Assembly (NCBI GenBank): GCA_903813345.2
Contig: CAIIXF020000001.1
Span: 10,602,001-10,666,000 of the forward strand
Length of the DNA stretch: 64,000 nt
From: Owenia fusiformis
Taxonomy: Eukaryota
Direction: 5' to 3'
This document shows positions 33,007-58,308 of the stretch, in pieces (position 1 is the stretch's first letter; every line of letters begins with the position of its first letter). The position numbers and the translations under genes are program-made. The notes under the pieces were generated by a model. It was not told where the DNA came from. It ran no database searches and worked only from the letters and a program-made list of their open reading frames with translations.

Positions 33007-36000
33007 CTCTAGGTCTGTGTAGTTTTTTCGGTTTAATTGTTCATAAAACAGAACAACGTTCGATAAATCAAGAAAAAGTTATTTTCAAATTTTTAATATT
33101 TACAAAAACCGCCTGAGATGGCAGTCTCTTGTTTCGTACTTTCTACACTAGAAGTACGAACGAAACTCATTTAACTATAACGATGCACCACAGCGCATCT
33201 TCGTTCACTCGGCTCCCGTCGGAACGCAGTGAAGACCGAGCGTGCGAAGATGCCACAGCGAATGCCTCAAGAAAAGTGCTTCAGTCACGATCATGTAGGA
33301 TACCGATCCAAACACAGTAACACTCTGGATTTTCAGTTTCTAATACGTTCACAAGGGAAACGATGAAAGACCCCCAAATTCCAGCTTGTATACGCCAAAC
33401 TGCCAAAAAATCTTCACATTTATTTATAGATGGCAGTGATGAAAAAGTGCATTAAGTACCCAGAAACAACCAGAAAGCTTCTTGAACTGGTAAAATATTC
33501 TTGCAATTTGCCCCCTCTGCCCCCTCTCTTCCCAAAAGGAAAACCATTGAAAAAATAGAATTTCTTAAGATTGTTTCAATTTCTTTTTCAATTGACACTT
33601 TCTAAGTGCCCAGAAATCACCAAATACCATTTTAAAATTGTAAAATTTTCTAGCCATTTTTCCACCAATTTTCTCCCAATAGTAATAGTAACCACCCCCT
33701 CCCAAATAATAAAATGAAAAGAATGTATGCTGTTTTTTCTCAGTTTTATTTATTGTCTAACACCAGAAATAACCAACGGAATGTTGTATCTTGGATTGGT
33801 CAAATTTCCAAGAGAGAAGGGTCACAACTTTTTCTTGCTCACTCTCCTTAGAAAGTGATTTTTGTCCAGAAAAAAGTATCTTGACTTATAATTCTTAGTA
33901 AAATTTTCTAGCATCCCCAAAATAAAAAACAATCGAAAAAATGTTTTATTATTTCCACTGAAACACATTCAGGCCTAAAGTCCGAAATAACCAAATAATA
34001 TCTTGAATTGGTAAAATGTGGGTGACTTGTTACACAATGCACCCAAAAAGATAGGAAACTCAATAAATCTAGTTATGGGGAGGTCAAAGCCATTTTAGTT
34101 TGTTTCGATCCGACAAATTTCAACATTTCAACAATATTTTTGCAATTTTGACTAGGAATGCCTTGGAAGTGTTTAAAAAAAAGATTTTATAAGTTTTGGG
34201 GAGGGGGGGGGGGTCAAACTCAAAACTGGATTTAAAGGGACAAAGTGCGTAAATGAATTCTCACTTTTGATCTTCATAGTATTTCAATGGATTAATAAGT
34301 ACCCGATCTTTCATTTGACACCAAAAAAGCTCAAACAGACCACATCAGAGTTGACACTTGATCATGACAAAATATTTTTGATGTATCAATTTATATATGT
34401 CAAGTTTTTAGCAATGCCATAGAAAGATGGCATTGCTGTTTGCATTAATAATTATCAATTCATTTTTGACAGGATTTTCAAGCATACGCCATTTTTTAAT
34501 CCAAGAGTTATTTAAAACATATATGTACTATTTGTGAAAAGTGGTAATTCACTTTTTTCAATCTCTGAACTTCAAATGTTGTTTTCTATGCAAGTAATTT
34601 TTTTTCACTTCAGTATTATCCCAAATTAAAGTTTTATCATATTTGATTGACTGTGTGAGTGACATGTCTCAAACAATATTTTGTCCTTTTTCATTCAAAA
34701 ATAGGCGCATTGCCTGTTTAATTAGTTTCTTATCCGACGATTAAACTTTTGATGCCTCTCCTTATTCCAGCTTATGCCGAAAATGTTTTCATTTATTTAT
34801 AGATTGCAATGAAATTATTGTTTGTAAAAAATTACATTAGCCTACAACGTCAGAGACATACAGTGTACTAGGAGGCTGGGGTTGAAGAACGGGTTGAGGG
34901 CGGGAGTCCAGCTTGTCGGTGCTCTATATGTCGATCGGGCGTCCTCAGTAAGTTCTGCATCAATGTGGTCGCCCCTGAGAAGCTTAGGGTGTCCAGGTTG
35001 TCTAAGGAGGGACGTACAGGTCCAGGGTGGAAACGCAGCAGACAAGTCCCCATATCGAGCAGTAGCAGGATCACGCCTGTGAATAGGCGTCGGCTTGCAG
35101 CCCTTCCAATAGAGTTGGACTCAACTCTTTTTTTTTTTTTTAAGTCCCAACCCACAAGATAAATTAAAGATAATACAGACTTGTGCAAGGCTATTTGAGA
35201 CCCAATAGTTGCATATTAGGCCTAATTAACCTTAAAATGTTAATGACCTAAAACCCATCCTGGATGACTGAGTTACGTTTTTTGGCTCTCATCTTCACCC
35301 TGTACAAGCCCATATCATCCAACATTTTTCATTTCGTATCTAAGATTATATTTTATTACTTTGCTCTTTAAATATATAGGCCGTTAGATTACATCTTTAC
35401 TTATAATGACAAACTTACATACAGCTCCAGACTGTTTCTTCATTTTTTGTATAAAACTCAAGAATTCCCATGTTGCCTTTATTTGTCTACTTGATTGTCA
35501 ATATAGAGAGACAATATGGGGTATTATCGTATGATCTGTAAAATCAAACCTTCTGATTGGTCAGTTCTTGTGCTGTATTAATCTGTATTGCTACTGAGGT
35601 TTTCCCCGTTGATTATCTCCGTCGCAATACATAAAATATTGGTACGGAGGGGACAATCTCAGTAGCAATACAGAGGATCACACGATAAAAACGTCTCGTT
35701 CCAATACAAAATTTCTCGAACAGAATATATCCTGTATTGCACTTCAAATCATTCAATAACTTATAATGTAATGCACCTTGAATTAAAATACAATTAATTT
35801 GTATAAAAGTATTTTATTAGTTGTAAAGTATACAATTTTATTATTTACATTTAATAGATGTATTTGTCCTATGTTTGTAACCTGGTCATATTTTCACGTA
35901 CCCTGACTCAGTCATCGCACCATTCGTGTGTACAGTAAAACCCGAGCCACAAATATGTTTCCACTGAAGATAGGTGATCATAGGTAATCACGTACAGAGA

Positions 36001-36472
36001 GGGTAGTTTATACAGACGTTAGAGTATGTGCAGAGGAAGGGTATCCACTAGAGTTCACTTGAGAATTGTGTTCATAAGACAGGTTTTACTGTATGTTTAT
36101 ACTGCTAAAGAACACATATTTTCACGTATTGACATTTTGAAATACTTCGAAAGCCTAATCAAGTAAAGTATATAATTGCCATACGGTGGATCCGCCCTTT
36201 ATCGCCGTTTTAATTCGATGTTTTAAAATTAACGAAATAAAATTTTAATTTCCACTTTGGAATCAGATTTTTGGAATTTATATGTTTATGATATATCCTA
36301 TCTTGAATGTAGCTCATACTATGTACAATAATGTACATGATGTTTCACAATATGTACAATATATTGAATGTATGTATATATGTCAATATGGGCATATTTA
36401 TAGCTTGATCGTATGATATAAGCCTTATATATTGGTTAAACTTGTAAGGATTATCTATTGTCACGTGGTACA

Positions 36473-39400
36473 TCATCGACCGGGGCATCCTGGGCATGGG
36501 CGCCTCCTTCGTTGCGCATCAAGAGGAGTAGAGCTAGCTCCATCTTTACCTGAAAAAGCAAAAAATAAATAAGTTGGTTTTCGTAAAAAATTATATAGAA
36601 TTCATTTGAAAAAATTGATATAATTCTTCAAGCAAAAAATCGACTCTGCTCTCAAAGTCATAAAACATCTTCCATTGATAACAAAAAGTGCTCAACAAAA
36701 CTTCGCAATACCGTTTTCTATATGAAACTATTCCATGCGTAGTTAATTTTTGAATGAGATAAATCATGTACTCTAATTTAAAATTCACTATGAGTTATCT
36801 ATTTCCCTTATTTTGTTCCATAATATTGGCGATTTTCAAAAGGTTGTTAAATATTATGAGAAACGCGTTAAGTGACAGCTAACAAGAATTCTTTTCAAGA
36901 ACGTACAAATAACAACTCAACCTCTAAAAGCCGATCACGAGAATTATTGAAAATTAAAGTTGCAAAAATCACACTTATAGATTTACCAGAAACATGGGAC
37001 GTTTACACTTTTCAAAATATTGCCAGAATAACCTTGCAACTGAAGGATTAGGATGAAATAAAGTCAGGACTATTGAACTTTTTAAAAAAGACGAGTTTTT
37101 GAATTCGAATGTTGTGAACAAGACATAGTTTAAAAAGTTGCTTAAAGCTTCAAACATAGACATGTTTCATTAACCTACACTTTCATAAGGAATATCTATG
37201 TCAAAGTTAATAGCATAGGTAGCCGACCTCTATACATCATAACATAGTAGGTAATGTCTCTTTATAAAAACAATATCTCACCTTCAAGTATGTCTATTAG
37301 GAGACGCGCAACTAGTCCAATATTATCTTTCTCGTGTTCCAGCTTTTCTCTCTCTGAAAACAGAACATAAAAAAGAAAAAATTATATAGGATTGCATTAG
37401 GTATCCATTTAATAATGAAAGGAAATGGTATGACTTGGTCAAAAGGGCATTTCTTCATACTCCATGCATGTCGAGCAAAAAAGCTGGATGTGAAGGATAA
37501 ATGGAAGGAAATAAGAAGACATTTCTATGTGAAATGACAATCTTCTAAGTTCTATATTCCATCTCCCTTAATTTCACATACATATCCATTGCGCTTACAT
37601 CCACCCTATGCAGACAGAGCCTGTGGGAAATATTGGGTGCGGCGCAAATGAGCGGAGGGTGCGGAGCTAACGGTCATTTTTGAATTTAAAATTGGGATAT
37701 TTCTGAAACTAAGCCGTTTTGGGACTTCAAATATACCAAGATATGTGTATTTGACACCAAATATCAATAAAATTGTGAAAATAGTAGTGCAATTCATTTT
37801 ATAGCGACGCAGTATGCCTTAAACATTTCCCAGACCTATATATTTTGAGACTATCCTTTTAATACTGCGTCCCCAGCATTCATAAAAAATGGTGTTCAAG
37901 ATACACTACCCATGCAAATTATTTTTGCATCTTGGAAGCCAGGCAGTATCTGTGTGATTTTATAAAAATTCGGAAATGTTCTTCAGATATGAGCCCCTCT
38001 AAATATTGGGTGCGGAGCTACGTTTATGGAGCTGCTCCGCACCCAATATTTAGAGGGGCTCATATCTGAAGAACATTTCCGAATTTTTATAAAATCACAC
38101 AGATACTGCCTGGCTTCCAAGATGCAAAAATAATTTGTATAGATAGTGCACCTTGAACACCATTTTTTATGAATGCTGGGGACTCAGTATTAAAAGGATA
38201 ATTTCAAAATATATAGGTCTGGGAAAGGTTTAAGGCACACTGCGTCGCTATAGAATGAATTGCGCTACTATTTTCACAATTGTATTGATATTTGGTGTCA
38301 AATACACATATCTTGGTATATTTGAAGTCCCAAAACGGCTTAGTTTCAGAAATATCCCAAATTTAAATTCAAAAATAACCGTTAGCTCCGCACCCTCCGC
38401 TCATTTGCTCCGCACCCAATATTTCCCACAGGCTCTGTCTGCATAGGGTGACATCGCGCTGTGATTAATTGCAAACGTATGGAAAGGCATTGGGATCATC
38501 TGGGGATCAACTGATATCTGAGAAATCTGAGAAACGAGTTAAAACAATAATACTAAGTGGGTCATCAAGGATGTAACCATGATGCAATAGCACATCATAC
38601 ACAGGCCCGTAGCCAGCTTTTGCCAAGGGGGTTCACTTTTCAAAAAAGCCAAGGGGAGTTCAAATTTGATAAAATTTGCCCAAAAAGTGCTCAGAATAGT
38701 CAAAACTGATTTTGAAAGAATCATTGGCCACCCCCCCCCCCCCCGACTACGGGCCTGTAAATTCCAATGTTGCAAAGTCCCAAGTCATGCTAAGTTTACA
38801 TTGTAGAGAACGTCATTGATCTCCATCAATGTGAATACACTAAGGTCAACATGACAGTAACACCCCACACAAAAGAAGAAAACCCATAACACAACTTTAC
38901 CACTTGAAACCTTTCCATAAAATTATGAACTGACTTTTTATTGACGAAGATATGTAAAAAACTGTACATAAATCTTTAATTCGCATTTCAAAAAGGGGTA
39001 CAGCATAAGAGAAATCCAGCTGGACGTCTGTTTATAACTCTTATTGTATAATGTTTGTCTGTAATTAATTACCCCGAAATTAAAATGTTTTCGAAAGGTC
39101 ATGTAAGGTCAAATTTCATTTTGAAATGTTTTTATAAGATGACTTCAATTTTCTGTTCCTTCGCCAATTCCTTCGATCACTTCGTGGGTTCAATCCCCAC
39201 TGCGGTGGACTGACTTTTCACACCAACCCTTAGCACAGGATTTAATTCTGTGTTTACATGTACAGTATATTAAATAATTTGAAAATAATTTGAAAACAAA
39301 GTGTAACAGACGTTCTGAGGTTTGAAACAAGTGGTAAATATTGAATACAGTAATAAAGTGTGGAGGGGTTAAATCATATTTTACAATATTTCTCATGCCG

Positions 39401-39895
39401 TAATATGGTACGTCCAACCATCAACAAATAACCCTCCTCAGGGAATAGTATATTTATATTCTTTCTGTTTGGAAAAATACCTTTTGATTCATGTTCAAAG
39501 TATGAAAACCAAGACGTATACATTCCTACGGATTGCTACAACAAAAGACTAGAATAACTTGGTATTTTACACGTACCTTCTTGAATGTATTTTTGAGCGG
39601 CTTTGAGTTCTTGTATTCCTTTCTTTAAAGTTTCTTCTGTGTTAACATCCTTTTCTATTGGTTTATTTAAGTAACTGTCCTTCCCACCAGATTCACTTCC
39701 GACGGATTCACCTTCCGTCCGTTCATTCACCGGGTTAGCATCTTTGTTAGCTCCATTTCCTTTTTTCAGAATGTTTAAGTATTGTTGAAGTATGTTCCTT
39801 AAATCTCCGAGTTCATGTTTTTGTTGTTGGTCAGATTGCACGAGACCAAATGTTAATATACAGCATAGGAATCCTAGTTTAAAGTATAAATCCAT
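36473..39895 (-). CDS. Putative secreted prepropeptide, family B paralogue 1 (155 aa), C-terminal RRRR-PCPGCP-GR*
   Basis: Exons 39895-39577, 37353-37282 and 36549-36473 (GT-AG, both introns phase 1; 468 nt). Signal peptide MDLYFKLGFLCCILTFGLVQS, charged helical pro-region, ending ...EREKLEHEKDNIGLVARLLIDILEGKDGASSTPLDAQRRRRPCPGCPGR*. Upstream non-coding exon donor at 40020/40019, acceptor at 39901/39900. Confidence 0.85.
37602..38450. mobile_element. Second copy of the 850-bp fold-back Transib-like element, in an intron of family B paralogue 1
   Basis: acatc|CACCCTATG...CATAGGGTG|acatc. Near-identical to 22205-23054 but with a different 5-bp TSD. Confidence 0.9.
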
Positions 39896-42800
39896 TTTTT
39901 CTGAAATAGAAATTAAACAATTTCTCTACATTTTTAGTTAAAATATTATATTAACTTGGCTGTAATTATGCAAGTCTAGAAAATATAACAAGATTGAGAG
40001 TGGCTTGAACTTTACTTACATATAGCGGTGTATCTTCACTCTTGTTTCTGTTCAGTTATTACGAATTACAATAATCAAGTTAAATCTTTATTTGACTTTT
40101 ATTCTTTTTAATGTATATTATTAACCTCAGAAAAATCCGGAAGCAGTTGTTTCCAGAAGAAAGGTATGACCAACGTCCAATGAAGTCTAACAAGTGTTAA
40201 CACCCACTCTTAACCATGACAACGAGCAGGCTTTTTATCTGATAATCCACAATCAGTAATCCAGTCAACTGTCACAATCAACTCCCACAAGTTAACAAAC
40301 TACGAAGCTCCATTGGCCATGTCGTCCTTTTAGGTAATTTATTCATTTCATTAGGCCTATATTATATCTGCATTGCAAATATTTTACTTTCTTGCTTGGC
40401 TATTAACCCACCACGACATTCTGCCATCAATGATTTTTTGGCAAGCTGACGTTCAGCTGGGATCCAGATTTAAAACCATGTTTAAAAAACGCACATTTAA
40501 CTCATGTAGTAGTATAAAAAACGTTTGGTTTACATATGGTCTTGTTACTTTGCCTTTAGTAAACAGTCTTCTTATCCTTCAACTTCTTTTTTTCACAAGA
40601 CATATTTTGCAGATCTTTAAGTAGCGCAAAGATATTTCCTCCAAATGATGAGGGTTTCGACAATAAATTCAATTTTATGAGTTCAACAAGTTAAGGCCAT
40701 CTTTCCTCTCGCTTAACACTCAAATTAAAATGCCAATACCTGCAACAAACTTATTTGTTGGAACTAGAAGCTTCTGGAATCTTTAAGGTAGACAAAATAC
40801 ACTTGGGAAGATTAATCTATATTACAACAATATACGTAAGGATACAGGTGTAGCGTGGGCTTGCAAGAAATCCAAAGTGATCTCAATACATGAATAAAAA
40901 AGCCTGAACAAACAAACCTTTTTGGCAAAATTGAATTCGGATTTAGTATCAAAATTTGATGAACTAGTGTGTGTAATTAAAAATAAACCAATGATTTATG
41001 ACTCAAATACGCACTTATTAACCCTATCGTCACAAATTAAGGTGTCGTTAAAAAGGATCAGATCTAGCGAGTAAGCTTAAAAGTTGTTTCAATTTTAAAA
41101 TAATTTTTGCTCATATCATTCCTTGTCATGTCTATTTTCTAAAACTCCCAAAACTGCATACTTTACTTGCGTAAAACTAAAGATTTTTACAATAATGTAT
41201 TATATTTCTATAATTATGGTTACCATTTTATTTTTTGGGAGAATTTAAACATTGCCCCATTTTTGCACTTTGAATTCTTAATAACATCACTAATTTATAA
41301 CACATCACGTATATTTTGGGAGGAATTGTACGAGTATTTGAGGAATTGGTGGGTCAAATATACATTTTGTTTGCGGTTTTATCACCCCCTATCTGATTCT
41401 GCCTTTAAACTTAGGTTCTTGCCAATAGCTTATATTATCAGGTGAATGTTAAAGTTCATAAATAAATTCAATTTGTCAATAATACCCCCTCTGTTTATTG
41501 GTGTTTACTGCTATATTTCCAATTGAGATAACTGGGGGGGGGGGTAAATGTGCATTATATGGTTTACATGTTTTTCCAATGTGTCCCACTGAGTTTGCAG
41601 GAAAATAAATTGTCGAAAACTCTGTCTGAATTCAACCACAAAAATGTTAGCCAAAAATATATTTAGGAATCCAAAACGTTTACCCGAATCAATTTGTCAT
41701 GTTTTATCAATTATCACCGTCGTGTTGGTCTTGGGGGAGAGAGGAGTTTGCGCTCTTCGGATATTTGTAATCTAACTTAGGCGTTGAGATGGTAGTATTT
41801 TTGAATTATTGCACCAGTAGCCATTACTTAGGTTAAGATAAGATTATACTATTTATGCTTCACTTGGGGATCTAATGGGATATTGAAGTGAAAATATTCT
41901 CATATAGCATGTTTAGGCTTTCTTAACTAAAAGCAGTGAGATTTACTAGTATTATTTTGGCATATAACTTATAGTACAGCCCTATTATCACTGTGTCATT
42001 GCCCTCATGGTCAAAGTCTGGGTCTAGAAAATCAGTAGTAAATGAAGCTATTATTTTGAAATTATGATTAAACATTGGTAAGGGAACCACTGACAGTTAA
42101 CATAAGATATGAGTCATACGAGCTTCCCAAAGAACAGAGATGTAACTTGAAGCATTTGCTTGACTTCATTCGGTAGTAGTTCAAGTTTCATAAACAAAGT
42201 GTCGCATTGTTAATAGCATGCTTAGATATGCCGTTTATCATAATAATTCTTTTGTATTTTATTTAACACTTTGTACGCTTTGCAATGTCTATTTTGCTAA
42301 GCATCCATTGTTTTTTTTGAAAATTGTTACACGAACGAGTGTTTGGCTCCATAGGCCACCAGGGACAAATTTCCCATTAAAAAATAGAACCCATTAACCT
42401 AACATGTAGCAAAATATACGAAACATGTCTCTCTTTTATTGCATTCGTAAAGGAACGTTCCTTGACACCACTTCTCTTCTCATTTTGTCATACTTTATCA
42501 AAATGCGTCATTGCTCTTTCAATCTTTTGGAAAGAAGTCAAAACCCTTGGGCCAAGGATGCACCTGACACCTATTATAGTTAAGGAGGGGAAGGGTCCCC
42601 ATGCAACCAAGCTAAATAAATTTTTAATTACCATTTTTCATACCAATAGGATGCCTACTTTCAGAATATTGATGTTAACATTCCTATCAACTTGTAATGT
42701 CCCATGGCGCCCATTATTGAAGGATTATACCCCCAGGATTCACCCCTATTGGGGGCACATTTTGATTTCTTCGACATCATTATAAATTATTTTCATTCAT

Positions 42801-43732
42801 GAAAAACATAGACAAACATTGATAAACCATTTTAAGAAAGATTTATACAATATACAATTATAATATATTAGCAGAAAGTGGTTATTCCAGGAGGCAAAAT
42901 TGTGGGGTGTTTTTACACAATTATGGATATAACTTTTAAAAGCAATAATAGAATTCATGTCAAGAGCTTAGGAGTAAACCTAGATATAGTAATCCTGGAG
43001 AATGATCTGATGCGAGTAGAAATAATTTTGATTCACGTCATTAAATATTCAAAATTCCGTCAAGGTGATGTCATATTTGAAATCTGCATGTAAAAGTACA
43101 CCTAGAAATATGGTTTCGAAATTGTTTATTTTTTGAAAATGTGACTTATAGCTCGGGGAGATTCCCCATAGACCCCAGGTTATAAAATTACAAAAAGTGA
43201 AATATCTTTTCTTGTATAGGACAGATTTTCTTTTAATAGACATATTTCAATTTGCATAACTATTAGATACATAAGGGTGATATGAAAATTGAACTCCTAA
43301 AACAGATGAATATTTAAGTTAAGGGAACTTTCTCCTATACCCGCAATGCTATCTGACCTGAACGAGCCACCTGGTGATGAAACTGCTAACTACCTACTCG
43401 CATCTGAGTTATTGCAGTATTTGCTTCACTAGTGCCTGAGAATAAAATGATGCATTTTCAATAATTGAAAGATCAAATGGATGGATTTCAAGTTTACCTA
43501 CACAGAAGATGCACATCGTTTTAAAAAGATGGACAAAATTGAAATCAGTAAAGAATGTTTTTTTATTTAAATTATTAGAAGCAAGAATTTGTTACAGACA
43601 CCGACCGCCGTCACAAAAAGTTTGAGTTGAAACTAATTAAAAAATTGTTTAGCTTGGGTGCATTAGAAGCCCTCTCCTTCCTTCTTAACTATTATCATAA
43701 ATTTTTCCATATTTAGGAAAACACGGGGAAAT

Positions 43733-44214
43733 CACTGGTGATCCACTCGATTACGCTGGTTACCGAAACGGTTCGTTTCGGTAACAAAATGTCGGAACAT
43801 CGAAGGTACGATTTTTCTTTTTTCCTTATTTCACATGTTGTAGGCAGAATTCCCATGACATTTTTAACACAAACGTGTATCAGTATCATATGTTTAAGAA
43901 AATGTACATATTTGCGAACAAATAGTTCAGAAGACAACAGAATCGTCTATTTAATTCCTCATTTAAGTTACAGAAACGGTTTTTCGAAAAAACAGTTAAG
44001 ATCTGCACTTAACCCAGACCGTTTATGTAACTTAAGTGAGGAATTAAATCGACGATTCTGTTGTATTCTGAGCTATTTTTCCGCAAACATTTACATCTTC
44101 TCAAACATATGATACTGATATACGTTTGTGAGCAAAAACGTCGTGAACATTCTGCCTACAACACGACATTTTGAACCGTTTGAGTAACCAGCGTAATCGA
44201 GCGGATCACCAGTG
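43733..44214. mobile_element. 482-bp palindromic MITE, CAC...GTG ends, 5-bp TSD (Transib-like family 2)
   Basis: gaaat|CACTGGTGATCCACTCGATTACGCTGGTTAC...GTAACCAGCGTAATCGAGCGGATCACCAGTG|gaaat. Confidence 0.85.
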
Positions 44215-46074
44215 GAAATGTTTTAATATGGTCAGTATAATGATCATGAAGTGCTTATAATGCCAGTAAGCTGCCATCTTTTAAGATTTCATACAGAACA
44301 GTTGATGTTATCGTCTCTAAACTTTTATAATCTTTCCCACAGTATTCAGTATTACAGTATAGGAAAGTAGCACAAAATCACTTCAAGACAACTGGCCCTT
44401 TACTTTCTGTGCAAAAATATTTTCAGGGTTTGTCAGTTTGTCTGTCAAGAGAATTTCAAAAGGGTTAAATCAGAAATTGAAAAAGAATACTAGTATCGAG
44501 CACACTGTTTTGAAAATCTTAATAGCTCCTTGCCCAATGCTATATGCAAAGTTGAGAGTCGGTGACATCACTTCCTGTGTGAAAACTTAAAATATTGTAG
44601 CCTACTGGATCGGAATAGAGCACTACATTTTTAAGAGATCAATACTGACCATATTAAAAAAAAGTGTTTTGCTAAATATTGAAAGTATAATACAAATATA
44701 TAACTACCATATTTGGAGAGAGATGGTCTGACAAGGAATATCCCTTTAAGTTCAAGCGCTAAAGCACATTTTTGGTGATCCTTTCTGATTTCACTCTTAT
44801 TGATTACATTAATAAATTCACATTTGAGTTGTCGTTCTGCAATGAATTTGATGAAACAAAAAGAATCACGCTTGAAGAGTTGATACTTAGTAATTAAACT
44901 CTACGGGCCCCTTTACATTAGATCTAACACAATCGTTTACTTTCCGACACTTAGATTAAATTGTGAATTGTTCAACTGTTCGTAAATACTCTTGTTTCAA
45001 AAAGTTTACAAAAATGTAAGTCCAAACTAGGTCCAAAGCAATATGATAACATTCCAACATTTTAAAAGTCTATTTCTTTTAAAGTAATCGTAGAAAAACG
45101 TGTCACTTACCAGATGGGGTATTAAATCAACTGCTTCCTATCTAATCACTCCTACATTGTGTCTAGCCCAGATTATGCTTCAATCCATGCATGACATGCA
45201 AATCAGAAGAGTCGTGTATTTATCGGCTCGTTTCACTTTATGGCTCGGAAACTCTGAAATTTGTCCTCCCAACAGTGTAATTCAATGTGTTTGAGAAAAC
45301 CCGCCCTATACAGCATCACCAGCGAGACACTAAACAGAACGTTAACCGTAACTCGGTACTTGTCAAACTGAACAAGAGAATGAATTTCTCAGAATGAAAG
45401 AAACCTAATAAGCAGCCACTTACATGTCCCTATAAGATTCTAACTAAAAGACAGTTGGATAAACACATCATAGGGGGTCCATTATATGTAAAGTTGCTTT
45501 CTGTTGATAGAATGGAATCATGCACTGTCCCTGGGGATACTGTACAGTTTTGTGGGTTGGTCCCAAGTTAAAAATGGACAATAGGGTCAATTCTCGAATA
45601 CCGTAAAATCTCTTCAGAATAATGTAAATTGATCAGGTTTTCTTATGTTGCCTCTAAATGTTGCCCTCTGTACTTTGTGATCCAGGGAGCACACACACAC
45701 GCTGCAATAACGACAAATTGTCGCACTACTGAAGACCATGACCTAATCTCTACCACGCAGATCCATATTTTTCTCAAGTAAATAGTTCTGTGAGTTCATG
45801 CTGGGAGTAGTATGTTAATTGACACGGGTAAGACGATATGTATTTTGTGGCAGAAGACAGAGCTAATCTTACTGTGTATGTCATCTACTGACAAATTTCA
45901 TTCTAACGCATGCCACCTGTTTAACCCTCTCACACCAAAATTCAGTGATCAGTCAACACTCATAATATTCTTTGTATATCGCCAGACGCTGAAGGGTTAA
46001 GAAGATTTAGAGCCATCTTAAGAACAATAAAGACATGTTCTAGCAGTAACCATTTTTCATAATTTTGGATTTCT

Positions 46075-47582
46075 TGAATTTGAACCTCATATCATGCCTA
46101 TATAATATTGAATTTGAATGTATACCTATTCATATTGAATTTGATTAGATACCTATATCATATTTAAATTGAATACCTGTATATCAAATTCCATATCAAC
46201 TTTAATTTGATTGCTTGTCTATCAACTTGAATTTTATGATATGCCTTTATCATATAAACTTGATTACATGCCTATTTCAAATTGAATTCGATGACATGCC
46301 TATTTTATATTGGACTTAATTGCATGCTTACATCACATTGAACTTGATGACATGATTATAAATATTGAATTTGATTGCATGCCTATATCATGTTGAACTT
46401 GATGGCATACTTAATTTTATTGAGTTTGATTATATACTTGTACATCATATTGTAATTGAATTTGATTGTTTGATTGATGAAATGCCTATATTATATTAAA
46501 CTTGATGACAATCCTATATCATATAGATATATTAATTTGATGACATGCCGATATAATATCGAATTTGATTACATGCCTATATCATGTTATACTTGATCAC
46601 ATACCTATATTATTTTAAATTTGGTTACATGCCTATATTATGTTGAATTTGATGACACGCCTATGTTAAATTGAATTTAATTACTTGCCTATATCATATT
46701 GAATTTGATTATTACATTTTGTATCGTATTTTGATTGTCTATATCAAAAACTTGAATTTGATTACATGCCTATATTATGTTGAATTTGATGATATGCCAA
46801 TATAATGTCGAATTTGATTACTTGCCTGTATCATATTGAATTTGATGACATGCCAATACAATATCGAATTCGATTACATGCCTATATCATGTTGAATTTG
46901 ATGACATGCCAATGTCATATCGAATTTGATTACATGCCTATATCATGTTGAATTTGATTACATGTCTATATTATATTGAATTTGATTACATGCCTATATC
47001 ATGTTGAATTTGATGACATGCCAATGTAATATCGAATCGCTTACATGCCTATATCATGTTGAATTTGATGACATGCCAATATAATATTGAATTTGATTAC
47101 ATGTCTATATTATATTGAATTTGATTACATGCCTATATCATGTTGAATTTGATGACATGCCAATGTAATATCGAATCGCTTACATGCCTATATCATGTTG
47201 AATTTGATGACATGCCAATGTAATATCGAATTTGATTACATGCCTATATCATGTCGAATTTGATGACATGCCAATGTCATATCGAATTTGATTACATGCC
47301 TATATCATGTCGAATTCGATGACATGCCAATATAATATTGAATTTGATTACATGTCTATATTATATTGAATTTGATTATCCCTGCATCATGTTGAAGTTG
47401 ATGACATGCCAATCTTATATAATTAGATAAATTGCCTATCATATTGAATTTGATTATATCACATCTGTGACGTTTTCAATTTGATTGTCTGTCTATTTGA
47501 ACTTGATGACATGTCTATGCCTACATCAAACTATATTAAACTTGACGGCATGCCTGTATCGCATGTATCATGTTGAATTTGA
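46075..47582. repeat. Satellite/minisatellite array, 28-bp unit GAATTTGAT(T/G)ACATGCC(T/A)ATATCATGTT, about 50 copies
   Basis: Direct tandem copies, homogeneous at ~46750-47400 and degenerate at the edges. Degenerate copies resume at ~48030-48160. Confidence 0.95.
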
Positions 47583-49183
47583 CCTTCTCTACCGAATGTT
47601 AACTAGTGGGCAGGTTTTGGAGGCAATTATGATGTCTATTTGCCTGGCAACCTCTTTCAGAACCACGGGTTGTCAACGAAAGATTTGTCCGGCTTGTTGC
47701 TCGCATTGTTTCTTCCTGCTTGTTTCTTTTCACTTCCTCCTCAACGGGGATTACCTGGACGCTGTGATCGTTTATCGGGTCTGAGTTGTCCGGCGTCTGA
47801 CGCGGTTTTATTTATTTATTCACCTCTCTGCGTTGTGTTAGAGTTGGTGACAACCTCAGTCTATATTGATTGGTCTTACACCATTTTCTGATTCTTTCGC
47901 AACCTTCGCATAAATCTCGTCGTCCGTTATCTTTGCGAAGGTCATTATCCGTTGTGTTCTGCCTATGGGACAAGTCTTCCGCCCCCACCCCCTCTTGGGT
48001 CTTCCGGGGAGTATTCGCTAGTTTGAACTGTGGCTTGCATGTTATATCATATCAAATATGATTGCAAGTCTTTGTAACATTTGACAGGATCCTGTTTAGT
48101 ATAAGATGTGTTGCAGAATATTAATGGCATGCCTGTAGATCATACTTAATTTGAAAATTTGTCAATTGTAATAACTTGTTAATTGATATAATGTTCCAAG
48201 AAACTAAATTACTTTGGATGGTTAGACTTTTTAGAGGTCAGGATGGCTTATTTGTTACTGTGGGGTGATAAATGGACGAACCTGTGGTAATCCCACAGCT
48301 ACTCTTTATTCAAGTCAGGACAGATGAACACATTTATCACTATACAATGTGTAATCGTTTTAAACAGTCCGGCGAACATCCCCAATTAATAGGAAATACC
48401 CAGGCGACCCATCAATTGATTTACATAGACCGGTGACATAATACTGTGGCTGGGAGCTTGACTGCAAATTACACAAGCGCACTTGATTGCAGATTTAAAA
48501 AACAAAAAGAAGGTCTATCCGACTTTTACAACTAATGTAGATTAAATTACTACTATTTATTCAAACACATTTTTTAAATGAATTTCAGTATTCACATACA
48601 AAAATTAATGCAACTTTACTGGGTCGAATTTTATGATGAGTTAAATTTTATGATGCGTACAAATAATGTGATTCAATCATTCAACGCTACAAGAGATTGG
48701 TCTGCAATCCATAACTAAGCAAAATTAATCACCCCCAAAGGATAGTTTGCAATCCCTTGGGCCTCATTTTCAGGAAGAAAACCAGTATTTTCATGATGCA
48801 GTAAGTGTACATAATGTATTAATTCATCAAATATCTCATTGATCAATACCGATTTATAATTTATATATTCATTAATTACTTTGATGCAGCCGACTGTATA
48901 AACTACGGAAAGTTTGACAAATACTTTCTAATTTGATCCCGACCTATTGTGTGCCCTGATTGAATTTTATTATTTAATAAGGTGTTATTTTGTTAGTAGC
49001 TCTTTTATAAACATAAGGAAATGGGATGGTCTGACCAAGAGCACGGTGTCCAACCCAAACGCTCTTACACACACGACGGATCGTTTCATTACTGAAACTA
49101 AACAAAGGCTCCGGAGTAGGAAAAATGGTGGGCGGCAATGATGAGCCGTCTGACGATTTCCCCAATAATGGAAATAAGAAGTA

Positions 49184-50054
49184 CAACCCCTCCATAAGTT
49201 TGGCAACCTTAGCTCCCCCATTGAACTACGTGTTAAAGCCTCTTTAGTGTACGTTTAAACATTTATTTACTTAACCGGCGATGAAATAACTCATAATATT
49301 GATGGAAACGTAACTTGACTTTAATTCCAATACCTCAAAATTTTCTCAATTTTTTCCTCAATTACAATAGGTCGAAAATTGATGATAAATTTGATGACTT
49401 TTTGAAAATCGTCATTCCCATGTAATCCAATGGTTAATGGAGGGTTCGGAGCAAATCATCAGAAATCAGGATATCTTTTCAGTAAAAGATTCAGCAAAAA
49501 GTATTTTTATATAGAAAATGGAAATGTCCAACTTTTTTGTACACTAAGTGTTTAGTTAATTTGATGAATACTAAAGTTACAGCGCTTCAAAGTCATTTTT
49601 GAAAATAATTTTTCGCCTCTTGTGTTATTTCAATGGGAGAGGTTTTTTGAAAAACAATTTTGACTTTAAAGCCCTATAACTTTGTTGAACCTGAAGAAAC
49701 ATATCAATTTTTGTGAAATAAAGTTATCAAATTTAATTGCCTGCCCAACTCGTATTTTTTGCAAGGATTTGGATGGATATTCTCTCATGACTTGCGGCAA
49801 ACTTCCATTTCCCATTGGTTAACATGGGAATGTCGATTTTCAAAAAAATCATCAAAATCATCAATTTTCGACTTGTTGTAATTGAGAAAAAAATGAGAAA
49901 AGTTGGAGGTATTGGAAATGAAGTCAAATTACGTTCCCATCAATAGTATAAGTATTTTCAACGCAGGTTAAGTAAGTAAAAATTCAAAGGTAAAGAAGCT
50001 TTAACACGTAGTTCAATGGGGGAGCTAAGGTTGCCAAACTTATGGAGGGGAGTG
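49184..50054. mobile_element. Tc1/mariner-type MITE, second copy (inverted relative to 8551-9396)
   Basis: ta|CAACCCCTCCATAAGTTTGGCAACC...GGTTGCCAAACTTATGGAGGGGAGTG|ta. Interior is the reverse complement of the first copy. Confidence 0.8.
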
Positions 50055-51710
50055 TATGTGCTACTTAATTCGAGTATATCATTCGATGGGTGTGATATTC
50101 ATGTTGTACTTGGTTGGCCGTTGACGTTTGACGCAATTAGGAAGAGCTGTACGAAGCAGTATAGTTATCAAAATTCATAAACGCATTTGTCATTCTACCG
50201 GTCAAACCCCCTTTTGTCGAGAGACGTGATTAGTTGAGTCAAGATTAGAGCATCAGAGTATATTTTGGACAAATTCCAAAGCTCCAACACACCATATATT
50301 ATCGTAATTGTGATTTGATGACCGAAAATCCAGTCTTAAAAATGATGACATTCTGATGACATATTCAAGAAACTCTGAGATCTGGTTAACACAGTGAACT
50401 GGAAACACTGAGGTACTAGTCTAGATATGTTTAGGAATTAACTTGACTTTCCTTTTCAGGAAGAGAAAGAAAAGATCTATTATACCCCTTGGCATCAAAA
50501 GAAGAAAGATTAATTCACACATAAACTTTCTGTTTTGTTGTCAATAGTTTTAGCACACATGTAGGCATAACATCACCTAATGTAGGCTTAAGTCGGCTTG
50601 CACGTATCGCACCACCACGTTGGGACGTTTCAGTTTGCCTAACAAGTACAACACATAGATTCGATTCCGAACTCTTCTCTAATAATAAATAATCTGAAAA
50701 TAATATCAAAACAAAATGGTAAGAGCATTTCTAAAATTGTGTCCAAAATCGACGGAGCGTTTCGGGGAAAACAAGCGATTTCTCGAAAACAAGTAATGGA
50801 TTTGGACTGGGATTTTAGCAAATGAGAATATACGAGTTTGTGATGTACTACTTTGACAGAAAGATTGACGTTTTCATATAAATACTAGTTTAATTCGTAA
50901 TTTGTGGTCAATTCGTCAACTTCCTCGTTCGATCTACACTACGGAGCTTTGATCAAGCCAATAACAGTTTACCACCAGAAGTTAATAAGATCTTTGCTCA
51001 GGGTATTATTCATCGAATGGTACATAATATGTCACCATAACGTATGATATGTAAGTGAAACAGTACTTACGGTCATAGTTGGATCTTCATTAGCCGCCAT
51101 TTTATTTCGCTCCGCAGCGTTTCCGCGTGAATGAAACGCACCGTCGTGCATGTAAGAGCGTTTGGGTTGGATACCGTGAAGAGGCATCTGGCCTTCCCCT
51201 CTGGCTGACTGTTATTCCCTTTGACAATATCCCGGGGACAATATATAGATGAGTAGGGGAGTAGCTTTCAATCAGGGGAGATGCGATCGTGGCATAAGCG
51301 AGCCAATAATTTTTTTCCTTTAAAATTGAGCTAGAAGCTTCAAATAAAAAACATTCACTACGCATATGGAAGTCGCCTATGCATCGCTTGCATCAGCCCC
51401 CCCCCCCCTCTCTCTCTACACGTATATACGTATATCCACGGAGATATACTTGACTAATGTCTGAGTAATTTCATTTTCAAAATGATGGCACAGTTTGACT
51501 GGCGCAGGTAAGTCAAAACTAGAATGACTCATCTTTGTTTGCTCGGATGTCTCAAGCTGAACCAAAGCAAGCGAAGGTGAGACTGACTGACATAACTCAA
51601 CTACGTACATTCTATCATGATAAATGTCGCATTATCCTGAAATCCTACATTTTCGTTTAAAGATTTACATTGAGAAAATGGCACTATTTCACAATATTGC
51701 TGGAGTCCTA

Positions 51711-53647
51711 TCAGGGACAGCCAATACATGGACGTCTTCTTCTGTATGTATTTAACTGCGAGTCATCAATATCTGGAAATTAGAATGAAGATTACTTAAC
51801 TTATATACATAATAGTATTTAAATCAGGAAAGTACTGATACTATGATATATGTTAAAATGACACGTGAAAATTGACAAAGTGATTTATTTTCACTCGGAG
51901 AGACAACTACTTGCAATCATTACAGACCTAAGATTCATCCGATTTATAAATAAACGAGGGGAAAACACGAGTTTCAAACTTAAGACATACTAACAGTACT
52001 ACTTATTTATTAATATAATTCAAACAACAAACGCGTCTTTTGAAGATCTATTGAAACCCTGTCCAAGCTACTAAGAAAATAATAATATTTCATAAGATAG
52101 TACCCTATCTTTATATTCAGCCTATAATAAAAAACGCTTATATCCTTTCATTAATTATATCTGGTTTGAATCATTTAGATTTATCAAAGTCCCTCTTCAA
52201 CTGATTCCGACACCCACTATCTTTGCTCTCTCCCGAAGATAGTAAAGGCTATTGAAGAACCCACGGTGGGTTTGAATGGATTCTGTGATTTTGTAGACTA
52301 AAGGATGGATGGTGGATGTATAGAAAAAATTGAAAAACATCATCTAAATTTCTTTGTTTAACATATTGAGCAAAACGTTGTTCGACATATCACTTAATTG
52401 CCTTTAATTTTTAAGTTCCGGTTTGTGTAAGACCAGGGGTCAACTTAGGCCAGTATACGGCGGGAGGTCAGCTTCAGAAACCCGGTGTGAAAGAAATTAT
52501 GGTCCCCTGGGGATTATGGTCCCCTTTCTAAACGGCCCTTACTGGCCCTAACTGTGTATAAATAATAAGGAAAATAATTGTAATTAGGTCACCATATAAA
52601 TCAATAGAAAGTAGGACCAAAATTTGAGAGGACCATCTACCCTTTTACACCAGGTTCGTTCGTCTATGATATAAAGAAACGTTTCAAATGTTAATGTGAC
52701 TTGTTTTGTCTTACCTCCTTTTACTATGTCTACAAGTATACGAGCAACGAGACTGAGTCGTTCCCTCTCTTGACCAAGTTCCCGTCTCTCTGAAATGATT
52801 GTAAACAGCGGTGGAATACAACATAACGGATAATTGTGAACAACGTTGAAATACAACGTTACGCATAATTGTGAACAACGTTGAAATACAACGTTACGCA
52901 TAATTGTGAACAACGTGGACATTTTGTGAAAAATCTCCGAGTTTGACCTTTGGGAACCTATCTAGCAACAGATATATGTGAACAACGTTGAAATACAACG
53001 TTGGCATAATTGTAAACAACGTTGAAATACATGAACGTTGACATATTTTTGAACAATGTCGACTTTATTATGAAAAATCGTTACAATTAATTAACCTTAT
53101 TGAATTCCCAGAATGACGGATATTTTTGTCACAAATAAAACTCCTTTGGAACCCAGAGCAACAAATCTTTGACAATTTTTATCCAATCTACTCAAATTAT
53201 GTTTTAAAAGGTATGCAATGGGTCTATGTTTACCATTCTTATAAATATCCATCAATTATAAATTTTCTGCTTAAAATAGAAGGACGAAGATTATGATATT
53301 ACAAAACAAAGTAATATTGGCTACTTATTATCTTGTTTACCTTCAAGGAGTTCAGTCTTTTCTTTTTCAAGTTCCTTCATAGCATTGTTCACCTCAGTAT
53401 CAATATGTTTTGACACATCGTTGTCAACTATTCTTTCTCCCGTTGCATCGTCAGTAGAAGCTTTCAATTTGCCGTCTTCCTTTCTTTGTATGTTGTCGCC
53501 TGTATCTGGGACTTTATCATTTAGTCGTTTGCGATATGCTTTTAGTAGTTCTATGAGGTCTCGTTCATCGTTATCTGGTTCGGCAGCCTCCAAATATTGG
53601 ACACTAGCGAGTCCCGAAAGAAGGATTAAAAGTATCCGGAGTTCCAT
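51711..53647 (-). CDS. Putative secreted prepropeptide, family B paralogue 2 (147 aa), C-terminal RRRR-PCIGCP*
   Basis: Exons 53647-53341, 52789-52715 and 51772-51711 (GT-AG, both introns phase 1; 444 nt). Signal peptide MELRILLILLSGLASVQYLEA, ending ...ERRELGQERERLSLVARILVDIVKGDIDDSQLNTYRRRRPCIGCP*. Same exon/phase structure as 36473-39895. Confidence 0.85.
52800..53070. repeat. 35-bp minisatellite GCATAATTGTGAACAACGTTGAAATACAACGTTAC (intronic)
   Basis: Copies at 52863 and 52898, with diverged copies to ~53070. Abuts the acceptor of exon 52789. Confidence 0.8.
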
Positions 53648-57690: not shown

Positions 57691-58308
57691 ATGGATAAAA
57701 TAAACAAACAAATTCAAAACTATCATAAAGCACAGACATACGCACCGAATCAACAAAAAACTCACACCAAAAACACCATTAAAGTTAGCAGTCATAACAG
57801 CAGAATGCCAGCACCCACCTATAAAGGAAATTTTAGTAACACTAGCAATGGATCTTATGGAGGATTCCATAAAGAATGGAGGCCAACCACACTGGGCCAA
57901 CTACCCAAGTCCCAGAAGAATAAGAAACACATGAAGTTCATTGAAGATCTCCCGAGAGTCAGCGATGAATACGGCTTTTACGCATGGGAGAAAGTAAAAC
58001 AGGATAACGAGAACAAAGAATTTATGTCCGAGTTGGAACGAAATAAGAAAAACAGCAGAGCTTCTGGTCTTTTGGACGAAGAAAAGGGATGGGCCAATAC
58101 ACAGAAGAGAAAGGAATCCTTCTTACCACCAATTAACAATAATAAAAGGGACTCCTTTAAAACCAATGCCAGTTTCAGTGTCACTACGGGCCCCATTGAT
58201 CAGAGTTTCAGACTCCCTGATATTAAACATATTAATATCCAGTTAACATTGGCTGACGACAGACAAGTAACAATAAGGGCAGATCCCAACAAAGCCCATT
58301 TTACGTAG
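57691..58308 (+). CDS. Uncharacterised 205-aa (possibly 216-aa) basic, largely disordered protein, single coding exon
   Basis: Longest ORF in the window, with a GC rise. Acceptor tttcag at 57645 and upstream non-coding donors at 56712/56713 and 56915/56916. Contains FLPPI and RLPDI motifs. No family recognised. Confidence 0.7.
   Translation: MDKINKQIQNYHKAQTYAPNQQKTHTKNTIKVSSHNSRMPAPTYKGNFSNTSNGSYGGFHKEWRPTTLGQLPKSQKNKKHMKFIEDLPRVSDEYGFYAWEKVKQDNENKEFMSELERNKKNSRASGLLDEEKGWANTQKRKESFLPPINNNKRDSFKTNASFSVTTGPIDQSFRLPDIKHINIQLTLADDRQVTIRADPNKAHFT

What the first reader, a model, noticed from the sequence alone, without database searches (positions are those of the whole stretch)
36473..53647. 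Undescribed prepropeptide family releasing a tiny CxxC peptide: RRRR-PC(P/I)GCP
Seen: two tandem paralogues ~12 kb apart with identical architecture (non-coding exon plus 3 coding exons, phase 1/1) and 21-aa signal peptides. The pro-regions are strongly diverged, yet the ends are near-invariant: RRRRPCPGCPGR* and RRRRPCIGCP*. Established: RXXR/polybasic sites are furin/PC cleavage sites and terminal G-R gives amidation. Inference: mature hexapeptides PCPGCP-NH2 and PCIGCP with a 4-residue disulfide ring (or a redox/metal-binding CxxC). Cleavage before Pro is disfavoured for convertases, so longer cationic forms such as pGlu-RRRRPCPGCP-NH2 (after DA dipeptide trimming) are equally plausible. 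I cannot place it among known cyclic neuropeptides (CCAP, elevenin, AstC/somatostatin, vasopressin/oxytocin, urotensin II).
Basis: partly seen in the sequence, partly recalled or inferred. Interest (0 to 1): 0.85.

Follow-up and report, generated by a model that had tools for sequence, protein, structure and literature searches.

The report
Two orphan secreted CxxC-tailed proteins
Two neighbouring genes of the tube worm Owenia fusiformis encode small secreted proteins, seen in no other organism searched, that share a four-arginine plus Cys-x-Gly-Cys tail and may be precursors of a tiny new peptide, although nothing yet shows that the tail is cut off.

Summary
On the minus strand lie two three-coding-exon genes (CDS 39895-36473 and 53647-51711) with GT..AG introns in phase 1/1 at aligned positions. 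They encode 155- and 147-aa proteins ending RRRRPCPGCPGR* and RRRRPCIGCP*. My models equal two consecutive 'unnamed protein product' records of the annelid Owenia fusiformis. Synonymous sites are saturated, yet the 10-residue tail is 9/10 identical, so it is under strong purifying selection. No Pfam family, no solved structure and no relative among 1.84 billion representative proteins was found.

It is a 44-46-residue helix with Leu/Ile/Val at one heptad position in 6 of 6 heptads, ending LVARxLxDIxxG.

Cleavage, amidation, disulfide state, tissue of expression and the proposed non-coding exon remain untested. RNA reads fall on the exon-bearing bins in an orientation that fits the gene strand, but are too few to show junctions.

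My best reading (about 0.4) is a lineage-restricted pro-protein cut at the tetra-Arg site to release (R)PCxGCP. The main rival (about 0.3) is an uncleaved coiled coil stapled by interchain CxxC disulfides.

The parts
39577..39895 (-). Gene 1, first coding exon (ATG at 39895-39893; 319 nt, ends in phase 1); residues 1-106
   Evidence: identical to P0002
39833..39895 (-). Gene 1, putative signal peptide (residues 1-21, uncharged run 7-21, VQS|D)
   Evidence: hydropathy and -3/-1 rule only; no dedicated predictor
37282..37353 (-). Gene 1, second coding exon (72 nt, phase 1/1); core of the conserved helix ...EREKLEHEKDNIGLVARLLIDILE
39577..39640 (-). Gene 1, start of the heptad helix (residues 86-106); the helix runs on through exon 2 to residue 131
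   Evidence: AF2 helix 86-129 with block pLDDT 85-90 over residues 91-120; L/I at one heptad position in 6 of 6 heptads
36473..36549 (-). Gene 1, last coding exon with stop (77 nt): GKDGASSTPLDAQRRRRPCPGCPGR*
36476..36511 (-). Gene 1 tail RRRRPCPGCPGR (residues 144-155): tetrabasic site, CxxC, Gly-Arg end
53341..53647 (-). Gene 2, first coding exon (ATG at 53647-53645; 307 nt, ends in phase 1); residues 1-102
   Evidence: identical to P0004
53585..53647 (-). Gene 2, putative signal peptide (residues 1-21; uncharged run 5-19; sites after 14, 15 or 21 fit the -3/-1 rule)
52715..52789 (-). Gene 2, second coding exon (75 nt, phase 1/1): RRELGQERERLSLVARILVDIVKG
51711..51772 (-). Gene 2, last coding exon with stop (62 nt): DIDDSQLNTYRRRRPCIGCP*
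51714..51743 (-). Gene 2 tail RRRRPCIGCP (residues 138-147)

Best explanation
The two genes are an old tandem duplicate pair of a lineage-restricted gene, so far seen only in Owenia fusiformis. Each encodes a small secreted pro-protein.

Proposed mechanism, all of it inferred:
1. The N-terminal leader takes the protein into the secretory pathway.
2. The long amphipathic heptad helix serves as a pro-region, for self-association or sorting.
3. A furin/PC-type convertase cuts at or inside the invariant tetra-Arg run.
4. This frees a 6-7-residue C-terminal peptide: (R)PCPGCP-NH2 from gene 1, after carboxypeptidase removal of Arg and use of Gly as amide donor, and (R)PCIGCP from gene 2.
5. The invariant Gly at the third position of CxGC favours a tight turn, which would let the two Cys, the only ones in the mature protein, close a small disulfide ring.
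6. The peptide then acts as an extracellular signal (neuropeptide, hormone or pheromone).

Shown here: gene structure, homology, selection on the tail, and absence of relatives.
For: - Gene models are exact matches to annotated proteins.
- Each protein has an N-terminal uncharged hydrophobic run of 15 residues with -3/-1-compatible sites.
- The tail is 9/10 identical although synonymous sites are saturated: pS is 0.76 overall and pN is 0.09 in the tail, against 0.53-0.66 in the 22-83 segment and the linker. The printed codon list shows 7 of the 9 identical residues on different codons.
- The residues just upstream of RRRR are free to vary (1/10 identical), as is usual next to a processing site.
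- Gene 1 ends Gly-Arg-stop. By recall, this is the standard amidation signal, and Pro-NH2 ends are known from TRH and calcitonin.
- Dibasic sites also stand at aligned places after the leader: KK at 44 in gene 1 and RKR at 39 in gene 2.
- The only Cys of the mature proteins are the CxxC pair.
- The tail is modelled as disordered, so it would be accessible.
- There is a precedent for cutting a tetrabasic site followed by Pro: PC2 cleaves KR|R and processes the KKRR site of POMC (one passage of PMC9070308 read). That CLIP starts Arg-Pro, and that CCAP (PFCNAFTGC-NH2) is cut before Pro, I recall without a call.
- RNA-seq reads fall in exon-bearing bins of gene 1, almost all with the first mate on +. 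That fits minus-strand RNA if the libraries are of the usual stranded kind, which no call showed.
Against: - No evidence of cleavage, amidation or ring closure exists.
- Pro after the last Arg is unfavourable for convertases (recalled).
- Gene 2 lacks the Gly-Arg end, so amidation is not a conserved feature.
- A disulfide ring with only two residues between the Cys has no counterpart among the neuropeptide families I know (recalled).
- The second most conserved element is a leucine-heptad helix. Ordinary spacer regions do not need one, and it fits an oligomeric structural protein at least as well.
- No orthologue with a conserved peptide was found in any other animal, unlike most bilaterian neuropeptide families.
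- Expression in the three RNA-seq runs laid is very low: mean depth 0.22-1.73 in the gene-1 first-exon bin and 0-0.36 in gene-2 bins, with about 6-12 in 100 of each run read. No splice joint of these genes is among the 15 joints listed; 77 more were not shown.
Confidence: 0.4

Rival explanations
1. Uncleaved, disulfide-stapled coiled coil. The heptad helices of two or more chains pair in parallel. The C-terminal PCxGCP then forms interchain disulfides, in the manner of an antibody hinge CPPC, the Cys pair of the COMP coiled coil or the disulfide rings of fibrinogen. The Pro after RRRR protects the tail from convertases. The Arg run binds an anionic partner such as glycosaminoglycan, mucus, or tube or mineral surfaces.
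For: - One heptad position is L/I/V in 6 of 6 consecutive heptads in both paralogues. a/d occupancy by LIVMF is 8 of 13 (reached by 534 of 20000 shuffles) and 9 of 13 (reached by 241 of 20000).
- AF2 models one long helix, residues 86-129, with block pLDDT 85-90 over residues 91-120.
- The helix region is more constrained (pN 0.34) than the rest of the pro-region.
- There are exactly two Cys per mature chain, flanked by Pro as in hinge motifs (recalled).
- COMP is a homopentamer held by interchain disulfides in its coiled-coil domain (one passage of PMC3487892 read); the CxxC spacing there is recalled.
- Pro at P1' is invariant.
Against: - Oligomerisation could not be tested.
- The a positions in the middle heptads are polar or charged (Q, R, K in gene 1), which would make a weak coiled coil.
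- A poorly conserved linker of 10-12 residues, of different length in the two proteins, separates helix and Cys pair.
- An invariant accessible tetra-Arg in a secreted protein is itself a convertase site.
- The conserved Gly in CxGC suits a turn (intrachain ring) better than the extended hinge conformation (inference).
- There is no sequence match to COMP or any other coiled-coil family above cut-off.
Confidence: 0.3
2. Cationic effector tail. The whole Arg-rich end (RRRRPCPGCPGR, net charge about +5) is the active part, released further upstream or left attached. It would work as an antimicrobial or adhesive peptide rather than as a receptor ligand.
For: The tail is short, Arg- and Pro-rich and holds a Cys pair. 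Annelid antimicrobial peptides such as arenicin sit at the C-terminus of larger precursors (recalled).
Against: - No basic or other recognisable site lies upstream of RRRR within the linker.
- In antimicrobial and toxin families the leader is usually conserved and the mature peptide varies (recalled). Here the leader is 4/21 identical and the tail 9/10.
- Ten to twelve residues is very short for membrane activity.
Confidence: 0.1
3. The conserved helix, not the tail, is the hormone. It would be a long amphipathic peptide of the CRF / diuretic hormone 44 / egg-laying hormone style. In gene 1 it is bounded by KK (91-92) and Gly-Lys (131-132), giving a 38-residue amidated peptide that ends ...ARLLIDILE-NH2.
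For: - LVARxLxDIxxG is the second most conserved block.
- Gene 1 has KK before the helix and G-K after it.
- The end of the helix resembles the ...NRLLLDTI-NH2 style ends of CRF-family peptides (recalled, not tested).
Against: - Gene 2 has neither the upstream dibasic site nor a basic residue after the Gly (KGD), and it has RR inside the helix.
- No CRF or other hormone family appears in Pfam even at E up to 10.
- This reading leaves the invariant tail unexplained.
Confidence: 0.07
4. Annotation artefact or decaying genes without function.
For: Very low read depth; no relatives found. The published annotation mixes RNA-seq and ab initio models, so a model alone does not prove a transcript (passages read).
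Against: - Two open frames with identical intron phases are kept after synonymous saturation.
- The tail shows strong purifying selection and the helix moderate selection.
- Reads lie on exon-bearing bins, almost all with the first mate on +, as expected for minus-strand RNA in the usual stranded library.
Confidence: 0.03

Closest known systems
Prohormones with one C-terminal disulfide-cyclised peptide (somatostatin, allatostatin C, urotensin II, MCH)
   Same: A signal peptide, a pro-region of about 100 residues, a basic site, and then a short Cys-bridged peptide at the very C-terminus. Precursor size of about 150 aa is similar (features of those families recalled; features here).
   Different: Only two residues lie between the Cys here, against six or more in those families (recalled). 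There is no sequence or Pfam match, no orthologues, and the pro-region carries a leucine-heptad helix.
Crustacean cardioactive peptide (CCAP, PFCNAFTGC-NH2)
   Same: A small amidated peptide that starts with Pro, holds one Cys pair and is cut out after basic residues. This shows that cleavage before Pro happens in invertebrates (recalled; the papers opened did not show the flanking sites).
   Different: The CCAP ring has five residues between the Cys. The Pfam CCAP family did not match. CCAP has orthologues across protostomes (recalled).
POMC tetrabasic site KKRR-Pro (alpha-MSH / CLIP junction)
   Same: Four basic residues are followed by Pro. PC2 cuts KR|R and processes the KKRR site (passage of PMC9070308). 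By recall, the downstream product CLIP begins Arg-Pro. This is a model for an RPCxGCP product.
   Different: The protein is unrelated. The comparison is an analogy of site chemistry only.
Disulfide-stapled coiled coils and hinges (COMP/thrombospondin N-terminal coiled coil, IgG hinge CPPC, fibrinogen CPxGC-type disulfide rings, Rad50 CxxC zinc hook)
   Same: A heptad helix plus a closely spaced Cys pair flanked by Pro or Gly that links parallel chains. COMP is a pentamer held by interchain disulfides in the coiled-coil domain; the other examples are recalled.
   Different: There is no sequence relation. The Cys pair is 10-12 variable residues away from the helix and sits behind a tetra-Arg run. 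Oligomerisation is untested.

Membership tests
Peptide-hormone / neuropeptide precursor (generic class) | N-terminal signal peptide | tested here: met
   Uncharged hydrophobic runs 7-21 and 5-19, with -3/-1-compatible sites. This is a heuristic only; no dedicated predictor was available.
Peptide-hormone / neuropeptide precursor (generic class) | Conserved peptide flanked by a basic convertase site | tested here: met
   RRRR is invariant and directly precedes the 9/10-identical tail. Pro at P1' is unfavourable (recalled).
Peptide-hormone / neuropeptide precursor (generic class) | C-terminal Gly amide donor followed by a basic residue | tested here: inconclusive
   Gene 1 ends G-R-stop; gene 2 ends at Pro.
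Peptide-hormone / neuropeptide precursor (generic class) | Processed peptide present in tissue; expression in neurosecretory cells | not testable with these tools
   Only bin-level RNA depth was obtained.
Somatostatin / allatostatin C / urotensin II | Family sequence signature (Pfam) and a ring of six or more residues between the Cys | tested here: not met
   No such Pfam family up to E 10; the ring here has two residues.
CCAP | PFCxxxxxC-type peptide; Pfam CCAP family | tested here: not met
   No Pfam match; the Cys spacing is 2, not 5.
Vasopressin / oxytocin | CxxxxC nonapeptide directly after the signal peptide, followed by a neurophysin domain | tested here: not met
   The peptide is C-terminal, there is no neurophysin match, and the mature protein has only two Cys.
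CRF / DH44 / egg-laying hormone | Amidated helix of about 36-46 residues bounded by basic sites; Pfam CRF family | tested here: not met
   No Pfam match; the bounding sites are present in gene 1 only.
Thioredoxin-fold CxxC oxidoreductases | CxxC at the start of a helix within a thioredoxin fold | tested here: not met
   No Pfam match. The model is helices plus disorder, and the CxxC lies in a disordered tail.
COMP/thrombospondin-type disulfide-stapled coiled coil | Heptad-repeat helix | tested here: met
   6 of 6 heptads have L/I/V at one position in both proteins; helix 86-129 has block pLDDT 85-90 over residues 91-120.
COMP/thrombospondin-type disulfide-stapled coiled coil | Homo-oligomer with interchain disulfides | not testable with these tools
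   Complex prediction never accepted the job: queue full, and not available.
COMP/thrombospondin-type disulfide-stapled coiled coil | Sequence homology to the family | tested here: not met
   No Pfam match. The best PDB hits are E 0.21-3.9 to unrelated helical proteins.

The most novel reading that the evidence does not exclude
Zipper-templated dimeric mini-peptide. The leucine-heptad pro-region aligns two precursors in parallel, either as homodimers or as a heterodimer of the two paralogues. The two CxGC pairs then form interchain disulfides. Convertase cleavage at the tetra-Arg run releases a covalently dimeric, doubly bridged (R)PCxGCP peptide. This would be a route to a signalling or defence peptide with no described counterpart, in which a coiled-coil pro-domain dictates the disulfide topology of a product only 6-7 residues long.
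Probability: 0.08. Interest if true: 0.75.

Novelty: new variant of a known kind. Interest (0 to 1): 0.45.

Why it matters
If the tail is released, it would be among the smallest disulfide-cyclised secreted peptides known. It would also be a peptide family born within one early-branching annelid lineage, which would be useful for asking how new peptide signals and their receptors arise.

If the tail instead staples a coiled coil, the pair is a minimal natural example of a helix-plus-CxxC oligomerisation module in a tube-building worm.

Either way, the genes are currently nameless 'unnamed protein products'. Simple tests can settle the matter: a look-up in the existing stage and tissue expression tables, peptidomics, and non-reducing gels.

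Tried and rejected
Searches for relatives:
- Word-based searches with gene-1 exon 1 (1 of 1 candidate, itself), with residues 96-155 (1 of 3 candidates, itself) and with the two-protein profile (2 of 682 candidates, the two genes).
- Exhaustive HMMER search of 1.84 billion representatives. Three proteins had E <= 0.001. The third, P0005 (1144 aa), is a repetitive protein matched in 9 stretches, the best of them to profile positions 15-70, which is not the tail. I judged it spurious.
- ESM Atlas: best feature score 0.77, which is at chance level.
- PDB by sequence: nothing below E 0.21.
- JGI metagenome contigs: 576 pattern matches, none confirmed. The patterns used came from the N-terminal part, not the tail.
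- The search of earlier findings by sequence, by place and by words: nothing.
- No whole genome is held for this window, so further copies elsewhere in the genome could be looked for only through the protein databases.

Expression:
- The look-up of sequencing runs: no RNA holder listed. The guessed-'RNA?' run X1 covers introns evenly at depth about 10-20, so it behaves as DNA.
- Read laying gave too few reads for junctions.

Structure:
- Complex prediction for a dimer of residues 80-155 never ran: queue full, then 'not available'. There is no verdict.

Context:
- Pfam on 10 ORFs of at least 110 aa gave no match. Pfam on 148 ORFs of at least 65 aa gave only a CENP-O exon and one weak recombinase-like match, so the neighbours gave no functional lead.
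- blastn of the two loci and of their upstream regions showed no similarity, so conservation does not support the proposed non-coding exon.

Literature:
- The motif strings gave 2 papers, both irrelevant: perlecan, and a synthetic NatD inhibitor.
- The accessions gave 0 papers.
- Owenia plus neuropeptide or proneuropeptide turned up no Owenia peptide-precursor catalogue. I read passages of PMC10880339 only, which uses four cross-reacting antibodies.

Ideas rejected:
- A thioredoxin-like redox enzyme (no such fold).
- A CRF-like hormone (bounding sites not conserved).

Full report
WHAT IS THERE

The window is eukaryotic, with GC of about 0.29-0.38. A degenerate back-translation of RRRRPCxGCP matches exactly twice, both times on the minus strand, at 36483-36511 and 51715-51743. 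None of 100 dinucleotide-preserving shuffles gave two matches.

I read the minus strand and joined exons by coordinate. This gives two genes of the same build:
- Gene 1: CDS exons 39895-39577, 37353-37282 and 36549-36473 (319, 72 and 77 nt).
- Gene 2: CDS exons 53647-53341, 52789-52715 and 51772-51711 (307, 75 and 62 nt).

All four introns are GT..AG, and both genes are phase 1/1 with introns at aligned positions. The products are 155 and 147 aa and end ...DAQRRRRPCPGCPGR* and ...NTYRRRRPCIGCP*. The finding's coordinates are the gene-1 stop and the gene-2 ATG. The gap between the genes is 11.8 kb.

IDENTITY OF THE RECORDS

The first exon of gene 1 retrieves one protein, 100% identical: an 'unnamed protein product' of the annelid Owenia fusiformis. 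Its full sequence equals my spliced model. The exhaustive search returned the gene-2 product, again letter for letter my model.

The two carry consecutive accessions, CAH1772947.1 and CAH1772948.1, and each is alone in its 90% cluster. The published annotation of this genome merged RNA-seq assemblies and splice junctions with Augustus predictions through PASA (passages of the methods of PMC9977687 read). Agreement with the annotation is therefore support for these terminal exons, but not proof.

ARE THEY REAL, RELATED AND CONSTRAINED?

- BLASTP of the two proteins gives 45.8 bits, E 1e-11, 21/46 identical over the last 46 residues. Whole-length identity is 29%.
- The loci share no nucleotide similarity at all, and synonymous sites are saturated (pS 0.76). 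The duplication is therefore old.
- Against that background the ten-residue tail is 9/10 identical with pN 0.09. The printed codon list shows seven of the nine identical residues on different codons.
- Other segments: the leader is 4/21 identical, residues 22-83 are 11/58, the linker before RRRR is 1/10, and the helix region is 17/46 with pN 0.34.
- The tail is under strong purifying selection and the helix under moderate selection. This rules out a chance ORF or a dead gene.
- tblastn of both proteins on the window finds no third copy.

AlphaFold2 on the two-sequence alignment gives a poor overall model (mean pLDDT 60.1, pTM 0.26). It does give one confident long helix, residues 86-129, with block pLDDT 85-90 over residues 91-120. 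Residues 47-74 and the tail are disordered.

In that helix one heptad position is L/I/V in 6 of 6 consecutive heptads in both paralogues. a/d occupancy by LIVMF is 8 of 13 and 9 of 13, reached by 534 and 241 of 20000 shuffles. The middle a positions are polar. The helix ends in the conserved block LVARxLxDIxxG, which is the most hydrophobic stretch outside the leader. The only two Cys of each mature protein are those of the tail.

RELATIVES AND KNOWN FAMILIES

- Pfam: the three weak matches of gene 1 all lie far below their cut-offs (16.4 bits against 36, 15.8 against 27, 13.6 against 24.4). No hormone, thioredoxin or COMP family appears even at E up to 10.
- The profile search of 1.84 billion representatives finds the two genes plus one repetitive 1144-aa protein. 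That protein matches the N-terminal low-complexity part (best stretch at profile positions 15-70, nine stretches in all) and not the tail. I take it as spurious.
- The word-based profile search passes 2 of 682 candidates, the two genes themselves.
- PDB by sequence gives nothing below E 0.21. The ESM Atlas gives nothing above 0.77. Metagenome contigs give none of 576 pattern matches confirmed.
- The paper library holds neither the motif in a relevant context nor the accessions. My searches turned up no Owenia peptide-precursor catalogue.
- The family is therefore undescribed and, as far as these collections reach, confined to Owenia. Short, fast-evolving secreted proteins can escape such searches, and transcriptome-only species may be missing.

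EXPRESSION

No listed holder of the stretch is on record as RNA. The guessed run X1 behaves as DNA, with even depth of about 10-20 over introns. Three RNA-seq runs of the same species label were laid as raw reads, with about 6-12 in 100 of each run read.

| Bin | Content | X17 | X18 | X19 |
|---|---|---|---|---|
| 39505-40165 | gene-1 first exon | 1.73 | 0.22 | 1.01 |
| 36200-36860 | gene-1 last exon | 0.42 | 0.06 | 1.01 |
| 40166-40826 | repeat-free flank | 0 | 0 | 0 |
| 51403-52063 | gene-2 last exon | 0.23 | 0.03 | 0.36 |

- These depths are for reads with the first mate on +. In the gene-1 first-exon bin, depth with the first mate on - was 0 in all three runs. In the gene-1 last-exon bin it was 0.03, 0.13 and 0.44.
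- In the remaining gene-2 bins depth was at most 0.12.
- First mates on + fit minus-strand RNA in the usual stranded libraries. No call showed the library type.
- No joint at the four introns is among the 15 listed; 77 more were not shown.
- The genes are therefore transcribed at a low level in those samples, in an orientation that fits the gene strand. The junctions and the proposed non-coding exon remain unconfirmed.
- An acceptor-like TTTCAG stands just before each ATG. Gene 2 also has a TATATAAA about 85 nt upstream of its ATG (read), which would allow an unspliced 5' UTR.

HOW IT MOST LIKELY WORKS

The precursor reading fits several facts:
- There is a leader, a variable acidic or helical pro-region, and an invariant tetra-Arg run.
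- The residues before that run are free to vary, and the tail behind it is invariant and disordered.
- Gene 1 ends Gly-Arg-stop.

Pro after the last Arg is unfavourable for convertases. A close precedent exists, however. [quoted passage not shown] From memory, that site is followed by Pro and yields CLIP starting Arg-Pro, and CCAP is cut directly before Pro. I therefore expect RPCPGCP-NH2 and RPCIGCP at least as much as the hexapeptides.

The invariant Gly in CxGC would favour a tight turn and an intrachain ring (inference).

I give the precursor reading about 0.4.

THE MAIN RIVAL

The heptad helix, the exact pair of Cys, their Pro flanks and the invariant Pro at P1' also fit an uncleaved parallel coiled coil stapled by interchain disulfides, with the Arg run as an anion-binding patch. 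COMP is a pentamer held by interchain disulfides in its coiled-coil domain (passage read). The IgG hinge CPPC, the fibrinogen disulfide rings and the Rad50 CxxC hook are recalled analogies.

Points against this rival are the polar a positions, the variable 10-12-residue linker between helix and Cys pair, and the presence of a convertase site just where the staple would be severed.

I give this rival about 0.3. The two readings can also combine: a zipper-templated, disulfide-linked dimeric peptide released by cleavage. That is my most novel reading.

LESSER RIVALS

- The whole cationic tail as an antimicrobial or adhesive peptide: 0.1. The conservation pattern is the reverse of that seen in defence-peptide families.
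- The helix as a CRF/ELH-style hormone: 0.07. The bounding sites exist in gene 1 only, and no Pfam match appears.
- An artefact: 0.03.

VERDICT

The claim of an undescribed family is supported. The claim that a tiny CxxC peptide is released is plausible but untested, with a strong structural rival.

This is a new variant of a known kind, namely a secreted pro-protein with a polybasic site. It is of moderate interest until expression site and processing are known. The stage and tissue expression tables in the supplements of PMC9977687, which I could not open, may already tell neurons from glands.

Noticed in passing
window 34840-35130 (+): A full-length metazoan SRP (7SL) RNA gene: Rfam RF00017, 142 bits, model positions 1-299 of 299. 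It lies about 1.3 kb beyond the gene-1 stop, on the opposite strand.
   Followed up: no
window 25655-25735 (+): A hairpin matching the mir-46/mir-47/mir-281 microRNA precursor family, just above the gathering score (45.8 bits against 44.7).
   Followed up: no
window 18378-18692 (-): An ORF segment matching the CENP-O kinetochore protein family (PF09496, 31.9 bits, E 1.8e-07). It was one of only two Pfam matches among 148 ORFs of at least 65 aa in the window.
   Followed up: no
window 37602-38450: A foldback element inside intron 1 of gene 1: two 417-nt arms, 96% complementary, 15 nt apart. RNA and DNA reads pile up there on both strands, so it is a multi-copy repeat.
   Followed up: partly
window 46097-47456: A minisatellite with a 28-bp unit (also scored as 56 and 84 bp), about 43 copies, in the spacer between the two genes.
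   Followed up: no
window 52798-52916 and 52972-53056: Tandem repeats of 34-35 bp in intron 1 of gene 2. The first ends 9 nt from the exon-2 acceptor.
   Followed up: no
window 57679-58305 (+): An intron-less 209-codon open frame. The ESM Atlas holds it letter for letter from its fifth residue on, read as Met (a 205-aa record). It is low-complexity and N/K/Q-rich, has no Pfam match and no leader, and its function is unknown.
   Followed up: partly
window 61727-61981 (-): A weak, sub-threshold match to a phage-integrase SAM-like domain (20.8 bits against a cut-off of 22.3). It may be a remnant of a tyrosine-recombinase mobile element.
   Followed up: no
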